From the NCBI RefSeq assembly GCF_009914755.1, contig NC_060931.1: DNA of 64,000 nt; one strand, given 5' to 3'. The position numbers were made by a program, and so were the translations under genes. The DNA comes from the human T2T-CHM13v2.0 reference genome, Homo sapiens. Of this stretch, positions 3,011 through 57,690 are shown in pieces. Numbering within the stretch: position 1 is the stretch's first letter; each line of letters begins with the position of its first letter. The notes beneath the pieces were generated by a model that worked only from the letters and a program-made list of their open reading frames with translations, was not told where the DNA came from and ran no database searches.

Positions 3011-4469
3011 CTAAGTTAAAAAAAAAAAAAGCATACATTTTATTTTTAGTAAGGACGTAAAAGAACATCAGTAACTTACACTGAACTGTCCTCAAAGAGA
3101 ATAGGTTAAAATGAAATCACGATGATCCAAACTTGCCCTGTGAAGTCTTCTTAATATAAATTATCCAAAATGTCACAGCCAAAACTCCCTATGATGATTA
3201 CCATTTATTTACTTGGTATTCACAAATTTATAATTTTAGGGAGGATTTTTTTTTTTAACTTGAGTGGAAGCTTTTCACTTGGGAACTAACTTCACACATT
3301 TAAAGAAGGTAAGGCACCGAGGGTTTATGATCATTTACTGAGCATTTAACATGTCTGTAATAATTCTAACATTTAAGCTTCATATCAACACTATGAGGTA
3401 GGGGGTATAATACCTTTTTGAAGAAGGTAAAATGTAGTTTCTGATGTGCTAAATGACTTGCCCCAAGTCACTCAGCTAGAAAGTAGCAGAGCTGGCATTA
3501 TCCCCAGTCTTTCTGCCTCCAAAGCCCTTCCTGTAGCTTCATGCTCCATTTTTGAATTCAAATGACCTCCTCCAACTCATCAGAGAGTTGATCTGCTGAC
3601 TCACAGGGTATAATGAATGCCATATGTTGCATAATGTTCATTTCAATCTCCTTTTAAAAAATAGTTTTATTCAGATGTCTTGGAAGATTGAAAACAATTT
3701 TTTTAATTGGCCATTCTTTTTGTGCTTGGGCTCTATGTGATTTGTAACCATAAATTCTAATTCTTAAAAATTAACAATAAAAAAGTAAACATAGCATCTA
3801 TGGATTTGAAGACCTACATAAAATTGCTATCACTTGCATTTTTGAATGAACTTCTAATTTAAAATGCTTGCATTTTCAATGCAACCTTTTGTGCTCAGCA
3901 AAGAATTTATCTACTTTTAAACAGAGTAATAACATTTAAAACAAAACAAATACAATAGGAGAGGCAATCACTGGTAACTAACTGTATATTTACAGAAGTG
4001 CAATTTAATTGGGAACTGGTTTCTTAGATTTTACATGGAAAGAGACTACAGACTTTATAAGTAGAGACTAAAAGCCCTGAGAAGGGAATTTTTCAACAGA
4101 AGCAGCTGGGTGAGGAAAATTCAATGTATCCTCGCCCACTGCCATGGGAGACCCAAGGATGCTATAATACTTAAAGACCATGTCAAGGCAACCAGGTACT
4201 CAGGCTAGATCTCTGTTTGCAGATAATCATTTGCAACACACAGGTATGACAAATAATTATCTATATACATTTTTTAGGGTAAATATTCAAGAAACTAACC
4301 AGTGTGGGCCAGAAGAAACATCCTTCAAGCTCAACATATACTTTGTTAATGAACATGGGAATCCTTGATATTTAACAAAAGAAATAAAAAGTTTAAAGGC
4401 AATATTATTAATATTTTTGTATATGTGTGTAAGGTAGTAACCCAACCCAACACTAGGAAAAGAATGATC

Positions 4470-7212
<2,743 letters not shown>

Positions 7213-10389: not shown

Positions 10390-11991
10390 CAGTGAAGGAG
10401 ACATCCTTCCTCTTCCACGTTGAAAGTGTAGCCATACTTCTCCCCTATTCCTCCTGCTAAGTACAACTAAAAACCTGAACATCAAATATAAAACAAACAG
10501 AAAAAGACTCTGACAGGAGGGGAGAGAGGGCAGACTGGCCAAGAACCTCCTTGGGACCTGAGCAAGGGCACGGTGTAGATTTCTTTGGATTTTCTTTTTT
10601 GCCTCGTATATTTCAAAGATGGGGCTGAAGAGGCCAGCAACTGTGAAAGACCAATAGTTGGTAGACAAAAGAAAAAGTCCCAAAAAACCTTATTTCTCCA
10701 GCCAAAGGACTAGGAAAGGGCAGCCCTGCAGGGCAATGCTTTTAGCCGCAGTTGCTCTATTCTAGCTGAACACCACAGAAAACTTTGTCCTCAGTCACCT
10801 GTTCACTGCAAAGGCTGAGTGAGGAGCCTAGACTTCCACCCTCATGAGGATGTAGTGAGGTGTCCCAACATCTCTCCTAGAGTGGAGCCAGAGAAGGTCA
10901 AACAGGGAGCAGGTACTTTCATACCCACGAGTCAGTGTTGGTGAAAACAATGGGAGGAGCCTGGGCTTCCACCCACAACTGGCAGTAACAAGTCACATTT
11001 TTTCCCTCCCCACTGGGGTGGTGTCAAAGAGGCCTAGTAGAGAGTCAGGACGGTCACCATGGCCCAGCAGTAACAAAGCCACTCCCACCACACTGGCAGT
11101 AGAGACCACATGCAGAGCCAGAACTTCCACCTCACCCAGCAGTAACAAGAAGCCCTCTTGCCTCAGCTGTCAAAGGAAACCAAGTGGCGAACCTGGATTT
11201 CTATCACTGTCTCACCATAACATGTAGGCACTGTTCCCCTGATGAGTGGTATCACACAAAGCCAGCTAAAACAGAAGGTTTATGTAAGATCCAGAGCTTT
11301 ATAATATAGAAATGTCTTGGTCATAAGAGAAAATAACACATCCTATCAAGAACTAAGAAAACCTCAAATTGAATGAAAAAGACAATCAATAGATGTCCAC
11401 ACTGCAACGTCAGATTGTTAGAATTATCTGACACATACAAAATGGTTAAGGGACTTACATGTAAAATATAAAACTATACTACTTTTAGGAAAGAAACTAG
11501 GAGATAACATTTAAGATACAGGGCTAGGCAAAAAGAGTCAAAAGCTTGAACTATAAAAGGAAATTAATAAACTGGACTTAAATGAAATTAAAAATTTTTG
11601 CTCTGCAAAGCTTGTTAAGAGGATGAAAAAACAAGCTACAGAGTAGGAGAAGATACCTGCAAACCACATATTATAAAAAGAAATAAAAACTCAACAGTGA
11701 AAAAACAATCCAGTGTAAAAAATGGCAAAAAGACATGAAAAGACATTTCACTGAAGAGGATATATAGATGGCAAATAAGTATGTGAAAAGTTGCTCAGCA
11801 TCATTAGTCATTAGGGACATGCAAATTAAAACTACAATAAGATATCACTACATAGCTATCAGAATGCTCTCCACTCCAAAAAAACGGGTAACACCAAATG
11901 ATGATGAGAGTATTGAGAAAGTGGACGATTCATAACTTGTATATATAGTAGAGCTACTATTTTCCATAGTGGCTATACCATTTTATATTCC
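10390..11991 (+). mobile_element. Old L1M (5' region plus ORF2 3' fragment) ending in a micro-inversion
   Basis: L1 ORF2 motifs agacatttcactgaagaggatata and atgcaaattaaaactacaataagatatcac. 5' boundary approximate. Confidence 0.75.
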
Positions 11992-12104
11992 TGTATATAT
12001 ATAAATAGATACACATATATAAACTGCCAGATGTATTATTTCTTAATATTATTTTCTTAATGTTTTACATGAATATAAAATACAGATATAATATTAGACT
12101 CAAA

Positions 12105-13043
12105 ATGCTTCAGTCACGTTGCAGGTGGCTTGATGTTATAATCTGGAAAATCTGGCCTTAGGAGAGTAACCCATCAGCATTTCAAAATCATATGAGGTTA
12201 CCTTAATTTTACAAGGAAACCAAGATATAAAACATGTTTGTTAAAGGAACTTGGAATAAGCAGTTTTTAATTGCAGAAAGCCAGCTTCAAAGCACTTTAA
12301 AATTTGCCAATTCCAGGCTAGGCATGGTGGTTCACACCTGTAATCCCAATACTTTGGGAGGCCAAGGCAAGTGGATCATCTGAGGTCAGGAGCTCGAGAT
12401 CAGCCTGACCAACATGGTGAAACTCTGTCTGTATTAAAAATACAAAAATTAGCCGGGTGTGGTGGCGGGCATCTGTAATCCCAGCTACTCAAGAGGCTGA
12501 GGCACGGAGAATTACTTGAACCCGGGAGATGGAGGTTGTAGTAAGCCAAGATCACACACTCGCACTCCAACCTGGGAGACAGAGCGAGACTCCGTCTCAA
12601 AAAAAGAAAAAAAACTTTGCCAATTCCAACCTTCTCATTTCCTAGCTAAGAAAACTGAGGCCTAGAAAAGTTACGATTCTGACTAGTCAGAGTGAAAAAT
12701 TTGGAATGAAAACTCAGGGCCCTGACTCCTATTACTCTGTTTCACTCTTCTCGTTTCCTCAAGCAATTTGATGGATGATAAGAGAATAAAAAGTCATCAA
12801 GTTGACTTGGAATATAAAATCTTGGGTTAATTTAAACCGGGCATGGTATGACTAATATCAAAGCTGGCTTTCTGCAATTAAAAACTGCTTATTCCAAGTT
12901 CCTTTAACAAACATGTTTTATATCTTGGTTTCCTTGTAAAATTAAGGTAACCTCATATGATTTTGAAATGCTGATGGGTTACTCTCCTAAGGCCACATTT
13001 TCCAGATTATAACATCAAGCCACCTGCAACGTGACTGAAGCAT
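12105..13043. repeat. 183-bp inverted repeat (arms 12105-12287 and 12861-13043; 573-bp spacer)
   Basis: The arms are reverse complements base for base, except one mismatch (C12152/C12996). Confidence 0.98.
12316..12614 (+). mobile_element. AluS-like in the spacer of the inverted repeat
   Basis: Full dimer with TSD tttgccaattcca. Confidence 0.95.
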
Positions 13044-13085
13044 AACCAGGCCCTGTTCCACGTGCCATCTGCTCTATGATCTTAC

Positions 13086-13220
13086 AGTGACATCCTGGAA
13101 CTGGAACCGCATTGCTGAGCTGGATGGCTGAGGTCGGCTGGTGATCTCCAATATGGTCCTCAGCAGAATATCCAGCAAGCTGGCCACTATCACATCTATT
13201 TCCTCCAGCACAGATTTTTC
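13086..13220 (-). CDS. DOCK4: DOCK4 coding exon ~25 (135 nt), EKSVLEEIDVIVASLLD...MRFQFQDVT
   Basis: Acceptor ctcttaag|GAA, donor ACT|gtaaga. 45 codons. Confidence 0.96.
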
Positions 13221-30082: not shown

Positions 30083-30341
30083 ATAATAATAATAATATTA
30101 ATAAAAAAAACACTCCAAAGAGTGACATACAATGTACTGTTATCATTTAAAGATGAAATGATTTAAAAATTTGTAAAGAAGAAAAAACCATACTATATAT
30201 TTTTAAAGCTATGTAATAAAGGAATAGAAAATAGGAACCATAATCTCTGATAGTGGAAATTTCTATGAAGGAAATGGGAGCCTAGACAGGAGGACCTTGA
30301 GTATATCTGTGATGAATTTCTTATTAAAAAATCTAAAGCAA

Positions 30342-30651
<310 letters not shown>

Positions 30652-30752
30652 TTAAGATTTGTTAATGATTTGCCATTATTATGCTCTATCCTTAAATGTA
30701 TGTATAAAATATTTTACAAGAAAATATGTAAAAAATTGTTTACTATATATAA

Positions 30753-31114
<362 letters not shown>

Positions 31115-49600: not shown

Positions 49601-50556
49601 TTTCTCAAAAGGAGATACACACATGGCAAACAGGCATATAAAAAGGTGCTCAACATCACTGATCATCAGAGAAATGCAAATCAAAACTACAACGAGATAT
49701 CATCTCACCCCAGGTAAAATGGCTTTTATCCAAAAGACAGGCAGTAACAAATGCTGGTGAAGATGTGGAGAAAAGGGAACCCTCATACACTTTTGATGGG
49801 AATGTCAATTAGTATAACCACTATGGAGAAGAGTTTGGAGGTTCCTCAAACAACTATAAAGAGAGCTACCATGTGATTTGGCCATCCCCCTACTGGATAT
49901 ATATTGAAAAGAAAGGAAATCAATATATCAAAGAGACATCTGCACTTCCATGTTTGTTGTGTAGCACTGTTCACAATAGCTAAGACTTGGAAGCAACCTA
50001 AGTGTCCATCAACAGATGAATGGATAAAGAAAATGTGGTACATGGATACAGTGGAGTACTATTCAGCCATAAAAAAGAATGAGATCCTGTCATTTGCAAC
50101 AACATGAATGGAACTGGAGGTCATTATGTTAAGTGAAATAAGCCAGGCACCAAAAGACAAACATTGCATGTTCTCACTTTTTTTGTGGGATCTAAAAACC
50201 AAAACAACTGAACTCATGGAGATGGAGAGTAGGGGATGGTTACCAGTGGCTGGGAAGGGTAGTGGGAGATGACAGGGAGGTGGGGATGGTTAATGGGTAC
50301 AAAGAAGACAGAAAGAGTAAGACCTAGTATTTGATAACACAACAGGGTGACTATAGTTAACAATAATTTAATTGTACATTTAAAAATAACTAAAATGTAT
50401 AATTGGATTGTTTGTAATACAAGGGATAAATGCTTGAGGAGATGGATACCCAATTTTCCATGATGTGATTATTATGCATTGCATGCTTATACCAAAATAT
50501 CTCATATACCCCATAAATATAATCACCTACTATGTACCCACAAAAATTAAAAATGA
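46700..50556 (+). mobile_element. L1MA-type element: 5'UTR, ORF1 remnant, large internal ORF2 deletion, ORF2 3' part and 3'UTR
   Basis: ORF 48086..48601 is ORF1p-like (NLRVIG, ITEKFPNL, RTPSRFNPKK, HLIIKL). The sequence jumps to late ORF2 at ~48957. 3' end tactatgtacccacaaaaattaaaaat. Confidence 0.92.
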
Positions 50557-55700: not shown

Positions 55701-57690
55701 GGATCTAGAGAGTATAAGACACAGATGGTAGCCAAGGGCTAAACCCCTGGTAACATCAACATTTAAGGTATCCATAAAGAGAAATGAGTCCTCAAAGAGG
55801 AGGAAGGATGAAACTCAGGAGCACATCGTCAGGCCAAGGAGTGTGGGATTTTCAAGAAGTGTTATTAATAGTGCTCTATGCTATAGGGCAGTCAAGTATG
55901 GAAAGGTTTTTAAAATGTCTAGTGGCTTTAGCCCCTGGCTGGGCACTAGTGACCTAAAGGGGAAAAACTTCAGTTGAGCAATGAGGATGTGAGGAAGCAG
56001 AGGCAATGAGGGAAGACAGACATTTCACGCAGGCTGCATGTCATGACGGGAAGGGAAGAAGGAACATGGTGCCTATTTAAAAAAAATTATTAAAAAAAAA
56101 AGGCTTGAGCATGTTTATGATCTGTGTGAATACTGCTGGAAGAGATGCAGGAGGAAGAGAGAGGACATTGGGAGGGGCAGGGTCCCAGAAGAGTCAGGAG
56201 GGAGGGAGATCCTGAAGGAAGTAGGTGGAAGAACTAGTCTTGAAGCAAAGGAATCCTGCCCAATCCCCTGAGACAGGAAGCCGGAAGGAAAGGAAGGATG
56301 CAGATAAGTTTGCAGGTGGCAAGGAGAGAGCACAAGAAGTTAAGGAAGTTCCTGTCTGATGGCATCTGTTTTCTCTGTTAAGTAGCTGGGAAGTGGTGGG
56401 GTAGGGAGAATGGTAAGCTCTTGTAAATAGCTCTTGTGAGGACTAGTTTGCCTGCAATGTTGATGGACCCACATCTATACCCAGGTAGATGCTAACCTAT
56501 AGCAACTGTATAATTTCTTCTAGCAATGCCCTAATCTGTCAGCATTGCCCTCTCCTATCCCCAGCCCTAATTTCTTCTAGGGCTGGGGATAGGAGAGGGC
56601 AATGCTTACAGATTCATCTAGGACTATTTTTTATTTCCTATGCAGGCACAGTAGAACTAAGGATTAAGAGATACCTTAGATAACAATGGGAAGAAAATAG
56701 AGTGGTCTAGTGGAGGAGAAAAAGACTGAAAAATAGGCATAGTTAGAAAATCAGAAGGTTGAAAGGCTGTGGTCAGAATATTGGGAGTTTATGATTTTTG
56801 ATATGAAGTGCTTCTGGATGATTTCATCCACCCATCTATCTAATCAGTGGGAGATTCTGATGGGTAGAGAGGCAATACAGCCTAGGGTGTGGCCATAGTG
56901 AAGTAGAAGGCAAATGGAGGTAGCTAGAGTTGAAGTGGCCAAGAAAACAAGAGGACAGGAAGTTGGACAGTCAACCAGAAGGAGAAGACTCTGAACTAGG
57001 AACTAGACTGATTGTGGAAAACTAATCAGCTACTTACCACACCACTCCATCTTCCCCCCTCTTCCTCACTGGCCCTCAAAATACAAGTTGGTGGAAGACA
57101 GTAACTAGGACACATGGAAAATTGCAGCGCTGTATGGAATGAGCCTTATAGAGGATAGGGGAGCTCTTCACAAGAGGGTGGCGAAAGAGTATCTCTGGAA
57201 AGCGTTAGGGTATTTGGAGACAGCTGACCACCAGACACTAGACACCTGGCTTAGGAAGAGGGGCTCTCTACTCCAGCAGCTATACAGGAAGCCCTCTCAG
57301 CAGAAGCAAGTCAGGTCTCACTTAAGGCAGAACATTTTGGGAGAGCTGAAGATGTAGCAGTATGAACTGGTTAGCATTGAAGGGGCTTTCTGCAGGTCAC
57401 TTAACTATCCCTAAGTGCTAGGACTAAGTCTACCTATTAAGATAGCTTAGTGTTTTCCCCCCACTGTTCAGCTTATGTGTTCAGCTTGATATGTTTTTAT
57501 ACTAAACTTACCAGGTTATTTATTTTAAAATGTTGCAGATGTTTTTTAATTTCTCTCACAGCATGTAATGAATGAAGTATCAGTCAAGTGATCAATTCTT
57601 CTATACCAAAGCCTGGGGAAGACAGATATGTTCCTGGCTTGTCTAAGATTTATAGATTATGGTTATAGGGTAAGTCTTTTAGAAGAGTTG

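What the first reader, a model, noticed from the sequence alone, without database searches (positions are those of the whole stretch)
12105..13043. Near-perfect 183-bp non-transposon inverted repeat beginning at position +43 of DOCK4 intron 25
Seen: 12105-12287 is the reverse complement of 12861-13043 at 182/183 positions, around a 573-bp spacer containing an intact AluS and a MIR remnant. I do not recognise the arms as any repeat family. In the pre-mRNA the first arm follows only 42 nt after the exon-25 donor. Known: long near-perfect intronic duplexes are prime ADAR substrates and can alter splicing, and close inverted repeats mediate inversions and instability. Inference: 99.5% identity, far above that of any Alu pair here, implies a very recent (possibly human- or hominid-specific) inverted duplication or ongoing arm-to-arm gene conversion. 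Either way a ~180-bp dsRNA stem could form beside a splice donor.
Basis: partly seen in the sequence, partly recalled or inferred. Interest (0 to 1): 0.85.

Follow-up and report, generated by a model that had tools for sequence, protein, structure and literature searches.

The report
Young single-copy inverted duplication, DOCK4 intron
A 183-base stretch of ordinary intron sequence beside a DOCK4 exon has been copied once, backwards, about 570 bases away, so the pre-mRNA can fold into a long near-perfect hairpin; it is real and locally exceptional, but it belongs to a catalogued kind and no function is shown.

Summary
Arms 12105-12287 and 12861-13043 are reverse complements at 182 of 183 positions, with a 573-nt spacer. 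Homology stops abruptly at all four edges. The arms occur only at these two places in the window's own T2T genome. The next most similar repeat pair in the window is 91% identical. Of 69 close inverted pairs in 264 kb of DOCK4, this is the only one at 95% or above. The exon-proximal arm starts at intron position +43, after a GTAAGA donor.

The minus-strand RNA folds into the full stem: MFE -487 kcal/mol, z = -27.6.

Best reading: a young local inverted duplication, a neutral by-product of DNA repair or replication. The exon-distal arm is probably the inserted copy, because it alone is flanked by a flush 4-bp direct repeat (chance about 0.008-0.01 per arm).

One difference in 183 bp fits any age from recent back to about the orangutan split. 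Human specificity is not shown. An older repeat kept alike by gene conversion is not excluded. No primate or pangenome sequence was available.

ADAR editing, splicing effects and spacer inversion remain untested. The class is already catalogued. Interest is modest.

The parts
12861..13043 (-). Exon-proximal arm. It is transcribed first, at intron positions +43 to +225, and is probably the parental copy.
   Evidence: It has only a 1-bp flush direct repeat at its flanks.
12105..12287 (-). Exon-distal arm, the 3' arm of the RNA hairpin. It is probably the inserted inverted copy.
   Evidence: It is flanked by the flush direct repeat CAAA at 12101-12104 and 12288-12291, or TCAAA if shifted by one base.
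12288..12860 (.). 573-nt spacer, the hairpin loop. It would have been 260 nt before the Alu insertion.
12316..12615 (+). Full-length old Alu with A-tail, antisense to DOCK4. It carries a 13-nt target-site duplication at 12303-12315 and 12616-12628.
   Evidence: Rfam SRP-model hits at 12317-12433 and 12452-12600. The duplication is identical at both sites. 8 CpG remain in 284 nt.
12152..12152 (.). The only arm-to-arm mismatch, paired with 12996. It lies at arm position 48 of 183, leaving perfect runs of 47 and 135 bp.
13044..13085 (-). The 42 nt between the exon donor (GTAAGA, read downward from 13085) and the first arm.
13086..13220 (-). DOCK4 coding exon whose donor precedes the hairpin.
   Evidence: Hub annotation table. 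The junction was read.
11960..12104 (.). AT-rich flank (79% A+T, with a TA-rich low-complexity run near 11990-12025) directly outside the exon-distal arm. It is a possible fragile target site.

Best explanation
This is a young inverted duplication found at a single locus. About 183 bp of unique intron sequence lying 43 nt after a DOCK4 donor site was copied in reverse orientation into an AT-rich site further down the same intron. The source is the arm at 12861-13043. The copy is the arm at 12105-12287, bounded by a 4-5 bp duplication of the target.

The event is a by-product of double-strand-break repair or a replication template switch. It is not a transposon and not a selected element.

Shown: the structure, its uniqueness in this genome, its sharp edges and the predicted RNA fold.

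Inferred: which arm is the copy, the age (from recent back to about the great-ape ancestor), and neutrality.

The consequence is that every DOCK4 pre-mRNA carries a 183-bp stem with one G.G mismatch and a 573-nt loop at the 5' end of a 10,075-nt intron. Such a stem should be promiscuously edited by ADAR in the nucleus and then removed with the intron. The donor itself is left unpaired.
For: - Arms match at 182 of 183, and pairing outside all four edges is at random level.
- There are only two genomic copies, both here.
- No Rfam family hit falls in the arms. All 3 repeat-type hits lie in the spacer Alu.
- The unit as a whole has only a 2-bp 'AA' flanking repeat, so it carries no transposon-type target duplication.
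- The exon-distal arm has a flush 4-bp direct repeat. Chance is 0.0080 over 300,000 random placements in the window and 0.0098 in AT-rich context. The other arm has 1 bp.
- The single mismatch is internal, and both arm ends are perfect for 47 and 135 bp.
- Arm GC is 36.1%, against 36.4% for the intron and 36.3% for the non-Alu spacer. There is no GC enrichment of the kind expected from long-running biased conversion.
- Both arms keep their one CpG.
- Locally it is an outlier: 1 of 69 close inverted pairs in 264 kb reaches 95% or more, and the rest are 91.3% or lower.
- RNA fold: the full stem forms, MFE -487.4 kcal/mol against a shuffle mean of -238.3 (sd 9.0), z = -27.6, with 0 of 20 shuffles as stable. 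The duplex alone is -328.4 kcal/mol.
- Template switching is documented to create perfect nearby inverted repeats in great-ape genomes, including events where the return point precedes the departure point and leaves a direct repeat (PMC7954356, passages).
Against: - No outgroup or population sequence could be examined, so polarity and age rest on internal evidence alone.
- The 4-bp repeat is only modest evidence, about 0.02 after testing two arms.
- I found no microhomology at the switch points that a simple template-switch model needs. This was judged by eye from the junction sequences printed and was not tested statistically.
- One mismatch cannot separate a recent event from an older repeat homogenised by gene conversion. 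The Poisson 95% range is 0.03-5.6 differences, or 0.07 to 15-30 My depending on the rate used.
- The genome search also failed to find other copies of the putative MIR in the spacer. It is therefore blind to old diverged repeats, and the arms could derive from an ancient family. That would not change the local-duplication reading.
- An unexplained 7-mer, TCAAAGC, sits at both inner junctions in direct orientation, at 12287 and 12858.
Confidence: 0.58

Rival explanations
1. The inverted repeat is older, possibly older than the spacer Alu. Its arms are kept nearly identical by recurrent arm-to-arm gene conversion, perhaps with occasional flipping of the spacer by recombination between the arms.
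For: - 99.5% identity next to an old Alu, which keeps 8 CpG in 284 nt and is 76-86% identical to other Alus in the window.
- It meets the Lirex criterion for a 'recombinogenic' long inverted repeat: arm/spacer 0.32 against a mismatch rate of 0.0055 (arithmetic).
- Without conversion, an age at or beyond the orangutan split has P<=0.023. An old repeat would therefore need conversion.
Against: - The arm ends are perfect to the last base, whereas conversion tracts should reach the ends least often.
- There is no GC enrichment of the arms.
- 183 bp is near or below the homology length usually needed for efficient mammalian recombination. This is a recalled figure, not tested.
- The flush 4-bp repeat around one arm survives intact, which fits a young insertion.
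Confidence: 0.22
2. The pair is the footprint of a small inversion made by staggered breaks. The staggered stretch is filled in on both ends and ends up as inverted duplications flanking the inverted segment.
For: The architecture is compatible: a unique-sequence inverted duplication with sharp ends. The model is established for Drosophila inversions (PMC1885836; seen only in the search listing).
Against: - The model predicts no direct repeat around one arm, yet one is present.
- A second, short inverted duplication expected at the other breakpoint is not convincing. By eye, 10 of 16 positions match in register, far below the 182 of 183 of the arms. This is my own reading, not tested statistically.
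Confidence: 0.08
3. The hairpin is a selected functional RNA element. Candidates are a regulator of splicing at the adjacent donor, an ADAR-recruiting structure, or a precursor of small RNAs.
For: - It lies 42 nt from a donor and forms an extremely stable predicted stem.
- The stem carries 62 and 55 adenosines on the two RNA arms, of which 51 and 47 are not preceded by G.
- DOCK4 is heavily edited overall in one study, with 202 events (PMC11934315, passages).
Against: - No Rfam family matches the arms.
- The donor and the first 42 nt are left unpaired.
- The only DOCK4 editing site listed in that paper's held supplements is in intron 1.
- No paper links DOCK4 to an inverted repeat, an inversion or a palindrome.
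- A structure this young has had little time for selection.
Confidence: 0.06
4. The unit is a non-autonomous DNA transposon with long terminal inverted repeats, or the second arm is an assembly artefact.
For: The gross shape, two long inverted ends around an internal segment, resembles such an element.
Against: - There are only two arm copies in 3.1 Gb.
- No transposon-type target duplication flanks the unit; only 'AA' is shared.
- The internal segment holds an independent Alu with its own target duplication.
- For the artefact reading, nothing could be tested here. A 939-bp structure is well within single long reads (general knowledge).
Confidence: 0.04

Closest known systems
Long inverted repeats (LIRs) of the human genome as catalogued by Wang & Leung / Lirex, including primate-specific intronic LIRs such as the inverted GSTM exons in a GSTM5 intron
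   Same: It meets the Lirex definition: arms of 30 bp or more, more than 85% identity, GC above 20%, within 2 kb. It is intronic and made of non-transposon sequence. It also passes their 'recombinogenic' ratio test (PMC5414712, passages).
   Different: No exon is included in the arms. Whether this locus is in their lists could not be checked, because the 2009 FEBS J paper is not held.
Inverted-repeat Alu (IRAlu) hairpins, the main ADAR substrates in human introns
   Same: It is an intramolecular intronic dsRNA of a few hundred bp with a loop of hundreds of nt, and is expected to be edited and spliced out.
   Different: The arms are not Alu. Pairing is 99.5%, against 72-89% for close inverted Alu pairs in this window.
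Short-range template-switch mutations in great apes (four-point model)
   Same: They create a perfect inverted copy of nearby sequence and sometimes an accompanying short direct repeat (PMC7954356, passages).
   Different: In my recollection the events described there are short. 183 bp copied across 260-573 bp is larger. The passages I read gave no length distribution.
Non-repetitive, highly paired predicted dsRNAs of the human 'dsRNAome' (dsRNAscan)
   Same: It falls in the class paired at more than 96%, which holds 31,017 of 5,134,754 predictions. It also falls in the sparse non-repetitive class, of which only 4,597 are edited (PMC11838218, passages and section 10).
   Different: At 183 bp it is below their 300-bp cut-off for putative MDA5 ligands (2,018 predictions).
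Microinversions between human and chimpanzee flanked by inverted repeats
   Same: Inverted repeats bracket a segment that could flip.
   Different: Those events are 17-33 nt with short flanking repeats (PMC8755829, abstract and passages). Here no inversion has been shown.

Membership tests
Long inverted repeat (Lirex definition) | Arms of at least 30 bp, more than 85% identity, GC above 20%, both arms within a 2-kb window | tested here: met
   183 bp, 99.5% identity, GC 36.1%, total span 939 bp. Criteria taken from PMC5414712.
Long inverted repeat (Lirex definition) | 'Recombinogenic': arm/spacer ratio at or above the mismatch rate | tested here: met
   183/573 = 0.32, against 0.0055. However, the experimental basis quoted there (labile when the spacer is under 20 bp) is not met with a 573-nt spacer.
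Inverted-repeat Alu dsRNA | Both arms are Alu elements | tested here: not met
   SRP/Alu-type Rfam hits occur only at 12317-12600 in the spacer. The arms match no Alu in the window.
DNA transposon / MITE with terminal inverted repeats | Multiple dispersed copies in the genome | tested here: not met
   2 of 2 matches are the two arms themselves, at E<=0.001 and at E<=10. Caveat: the same tool found no other copy of the putative MIR, so very old copies could be missed.
DNA transposon / MITE with terminal inverted repeats | Target-site duplication flanking the whole element | tested here: not met
   Only a 2-bp 'AA' is shared by the outer flanks.
Template-switch / templated inverted insertion | Inserted segment is an exact reverse complement of nearby sequence | tested here: met
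   182 of 183, with the donor 573 nt away.
Template-switch / templated inverted insertion | Ancestral (outgroup) sequence lacks the copy and shows the intact target | not testable with these tools
   No primate or pangenome sequence is held. The own-genome search states that it has no relatives.
Template-switch / templated inverted insertion | Microhomology or short duplication at the junctions | tested here: inconclusive
   A flush CAAA repeat flanks the exon-distal arm (P about 0.008-0.01). No complementarity was seen by eye at the inferred switch points.
miRNA / hairpin-RNA precursor | Match to a curated RNA family, or small-RNA reads from the stem | tested here: not met
   No Rfam hit in either arm at E<=1. 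Small-RNA data are not available here.
ADAR substrate | Long, mostly paired intramolecular dsRNA in a transcribed region | tested here: met
   Predicted 183-bp stem on the DOCK4 sense strand. This is a prediction only.
ADAR substrate | Observed clustered A-to-I changes on both arms | not testable with these tools
   No editing database is held. The one DOCK4 site found in a supplement lies in intron 1.
Putative MDA5-class dsRNA (dsRNAscan) | More than 300 bp and more than 96% paired | tested here: not met
   99.5% paired but only 183 bp (criteria). It is also intronic.

The most novel reading that the evidence does not exclude
The second arm arose on the human or African-ape lineage. The resulting 183-bp perfect hairpin, 42 nt from a donor of the neurodevelopmental gene DOCK4, would then act in cis. 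It could change use of the adjacent exon or the kinetics of intron removal. Alternatively it could serve as a strong nuclear ADAR/dsRNA-binding-protein sink or a source of small RNAs, giving a lineage-specific regulatory difference.
Probability: 0.05. Interest if true: 0.6.

Novelty: new member of a known kind. Interest (0 to 1): 0.3.

Why it matters
If the polarity and youth are confirmed, the locus is a clean natural example of a templated inverted insertion large enough to create a long perfect dsRNA inside a brain-expressed gene. Both junctions are intact and the target-site footprint survives. That would make it useful for three things:
- studying how such duplications form;
- use as a non-Alu positive control for editing and dsRNA mapping;
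- use as a candidate marker for small inversion or gene-conversion dynamics.

As it stands it is a well-defined structural curiosity, with no evidence of an effect on DOCK4.

Tried and rejected
- **Transposon origin.** Rejected, with only two copies and no target duplication around the unit.
- **Known RNA family.** None in the arms. The mir-1268 and SRP hits are the Alu, and the HOTAIR_2 hit (E 0.12) lies in the exon and is chance.
- **Verifying the MIR remnant.** The genome search and a sensitive window BLAST found only the query itself, so it is unverified. This also shows that the copy-number test is blind to old repeats.
- **Arm against the rest of the window.** There was one weak 53-nt, 73.6% hit at 5758-5808 (E 2e-4). 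It was not followed up.
- **Staggered-break inversion.** A second short inverted duplication in register reached only 10 of 16 by eye. Not accepted.
- **Microhomology at template-switch points.** None was seen by eye on either polarity or either replication direction.
- **Literature on this locus.**
  - 'DOCK4' with 'inverted repeat' gave 2 papers, both irrelevant.
  - 'DOCK4' with 'inversion polymorphism' gave 2 papers, both irrelevant.
  - 'DOCK4' with 'A-to-I' gave 2 papers with no site in this intron.
  - 'DOCK4' with 'palindrom' gave 20 papers. The 10 listed titles and abstract openings do not concern a genomic palindrome in DOCK4; none was opened.
- **Supplement of PMC11097622.** It gave the hg38 DOCK4 span, from which the locus maps to about chr7:111,843,800-111,844,745. 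It has no chr7 entry there. This is uninformative, because the file was cut when stored and it does not list the spacer Alu either.
- **Wang & Leung 2009.** Not held.

Full report
**Observation.** The repeat finder gives arms 12105-12287 and 12861-13043, 183 nt, with 573 nt between them. A base-by-base count gives 182 of 183. The one mismatch is at 12152/12996. Both positions are C on the + strand, which makes G opposite G in the minus-strand transcript.

Homology ends abruptly on all four sides. Only 9 of 40 positions pair outward of the arms and 14 of 40 inward, which is background level. DOCK4 is on the minus strand. The exon at 13086-13220 (hub table) is followed by GTAAGA, so the nearer arm begins at intron position +43. 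The intron is 10,075 nt long. I could not check that it is 'intron 25', because the table gives no exon numbers.

**Is it exceptional?** Yes.
- In a self-BLAST of the window (208 repeat pairs), the next best pair of 100 nt or more is 91.0% identical.
- The best Alu-length pair is 89.5%.
- I added 200 kb of the adjacent part of the gene. In the resulting 264 kb there are 69 inverted pairs with arms of 80 nt or more and spacers under 5 kb. One is 98% or above (this one), none lies between 95 and 98%, one is 91.3%, and 67 are below 90%.

**What the arms are.** The arm sequence occurs at only two places in the 3.1-Gb T2T genome that holds the window, namely the two arms. This holds at E<=0.001 and at E<=10.
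- Rfam finds nothing in the arms. Its three repeat-type hits (two SRP-model halves and mir-1268, all below gathering score) lie at 12317-12600, which is the Alu in the spacer.
- The Alu has a perfect 13-nt target-site duplication at 12303-12315 and 12616-12628. It keeps only 8 CpG in 284 nt, so it is old. I could not determine its subfamily.
- The unit as a whole has no transposon-type target duplication; its outer flanks share only 'AA'.
- One caveat applies. The copy-number test therefore cannot see ancient, diverged families.
- That caveat does not affect the main inference. Whatever the deep origin of the sequence, two copies 99.5% alike and 573 nt apart are a local duplication.

**Which arm is the copy, and how did it arise?** The exon-distal arm (12105-12287) is bracketed by a flush direct repeat, CAAA, at 12101-12104 and 12288-12291. 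It reads TCAAA if the boundary is shifted by one base.
- For random 183-bp segments of this window, a flush repeat of 4 bp or more occurs with probability 0.0080. In AT-rich context it is 0.0098. The exon-proximal arm has only 1 bp.
- After testing both arms this is modest evidence, about 0.02, that the distal arm was inserted with a 4-5-bp duplication of its target.
- The target lies at the edge of a 79% A+T stretch containing a TA-rich run. It is only 11-15 nt from the site later or earlier used by the Alu. That fits a break-prone spot, but this is inference.
- Template switching during replication or repair is documented to create perfect nearby inverted copies in great-ape genomes. Some of those events leave a direct repeat where the return point precedes the departure point (PMC7954356, passages).
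- I saw no complementarity at the switch points that a simple version of that model requires, so the precise mechanism stays open.
- An origin by staggered-break inversion (PMC1885836, search listing only) predicts no direct repeat around one arm. It also predicts a second inverted duplication, which I could not find convincingly. I rate it lower.
- A 7-mer, TCAAAGC, sits in direct orientation at both inner junctions, at 12287 and 12858. It remains unexplained.

**Age.** One difference in 183 bp gives K = 0.0055. That corresponds to 2.7 or 5.5 My at 1e-9 or 0.5e-9 per site per year. The Poisson 95% range is 0.07 to 15-30 My. The probability of one or fewer differences depends on the assumed age (the divergence values are recalled):

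| Age expressed as species divergence | P(one or fewer differences) |
|---|---|
| human-chimp | 0.36 |
| human-gorilla | 0.21 |
| human-orangutan | 0.023 |
| human-macaque | 9e-5 |

Without gene conversion the duplication is therefore younger than about the orangutan split. 'Human-specific' does not follow.

Three weak observations argue against long-term conversion. The arms are perfect to their very ends, with runs of 47 and 135 bp. Their GC (36.1%) equals that of the intron (36.4%) and of the spacer (36.3%). The short target duplication is intact. None of these is decisive, and I keep an older, conversion-maintained repeat at about 0.2.

**RNA consequence.** On the DOCK4 sense strand, the 939-nt unit folds with all 183 stem positions paired except the one G.G.
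- MFE is -487.4 kcal/mol. Twenty dinucleotide shuffles average -238.3 (sd 9.0), so z = -27.6, and none of the 20 is as stable.
- The same stem forms with 45 nt of flank on either side, and the donor and the first 42 nt stay unpaired.
- The duplex alone is -328.4 kcal/mol.
- It presents 62 and 55 adenosines on the two arms, of which 51 and 47 are not preceded by G.
- From established ADAR biology, a duplex this long and perfect should be heavily and non-selectively edited in the nucleus and then discarded with the intron.
- At 183 bp and intronic, it does not meet the criterion of more than 300 bp used for putative MDA5 ligands (PMC11838218, section 10).

**DNA consequence.** The Lirex ratio test labels it 'recombinogenic'. 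The experimental basis quoted in the same paper is lability at spacers under 20 bp (PMC5414712). With 573 nt between the arms, hairpin- or cruciform-driven breakage is unlikely. Recombination between the arms, giving spacer inversion or conversion, remains possible but untested.

**What is known.** I found no paper dealing with this structure.
- 'DOCK4' combined with 'inverted repeat', 'inversion polymorphism', 'A-to-I' or 'palindrom' gave 2, 2, 2 and 20 papers. The papers opened do not concern this intron. For 'palindrom', the 10 listed titles and abstract openings do not concern a genomic palindrome in DOCK4; none was opened.
- One study counts 202 A-to-I events in DOCK4. The only site in its held supplements is in intron 1.
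- The class itself is catalogued. Long inverted repeats in human introns are described, including primate-specific ones (PMC5414712).
- A genome-wide dsRNA prediction reports 5,134,754 structures. Of these, 31,017 are more than 96% paired. Non-repetitive structures are sparse, and only 4,597 of them are edited (PMC11838218).

**Verdict.** This is a real, sharply bounded, single-copy inverted duplication. It is probably a young templated insertion and almost certainly forms a long dsRNA in DOCK4 pre-mRNA. It is a new member of a known kind. Its date, its polymorphism, its editing and any effect on splicing all await data that these tools do not hold.

Noticed in passing
window 56533-56614: A single-copy hairpin palindrome of about 82 nt in another DOCK4 intron, with arms of about 37 nt, a loop of about 8 nt, and 88% self-complementarity. 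Rfam gives 25 sub-threshold hits to assorted miRNA-precursor models on both strands, none reaching its gathering score. This indicates a generic hairpin shape rather than family membership. It could be a small template-switch product.
   Followed up: partly
window 30351-31106: A head-to-head inverted Alu pair with a short gap. The region is its own reverse complement at 74% over 780 nt, and the hub's masked blocks are 30313-30632 and 30689-30965. It is an ordinary IRAlu dsRNA candidate.
   Followed up: no
L004 (G000:C7:113223001-113233000) 4234-4325 and 4791-4882: The second-best close inverted pair in the 264-kb sample: 92-nt arms, 91.3% identity, 465-nt spacer. Its nature was not examined.
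   Followed up: no
window 12287-12293 and 12858-12864: The same 7-mer, TCAAAGC, lies in direct orientation across both inner junctions of the inverted repeat. No role could be assigned to it in any formation model that I tried.
   Followed up: partly
window 12288-12315: The inferred insertion site of the inverted copy and the target site of the spacer Alu are only 11-15 nt apart, next to a 79% A+T stretch. This suggests a locally break-prone spot.
   Followed up: no
window 11800-11938 vs 49655-49792: A weak direct similarity (66% over 140 nt, E 2e-11) between the region left of the repeat and a masked repeat block elsewhere in the window. It is presumably an old interspersed repeat.
   Followed up: no
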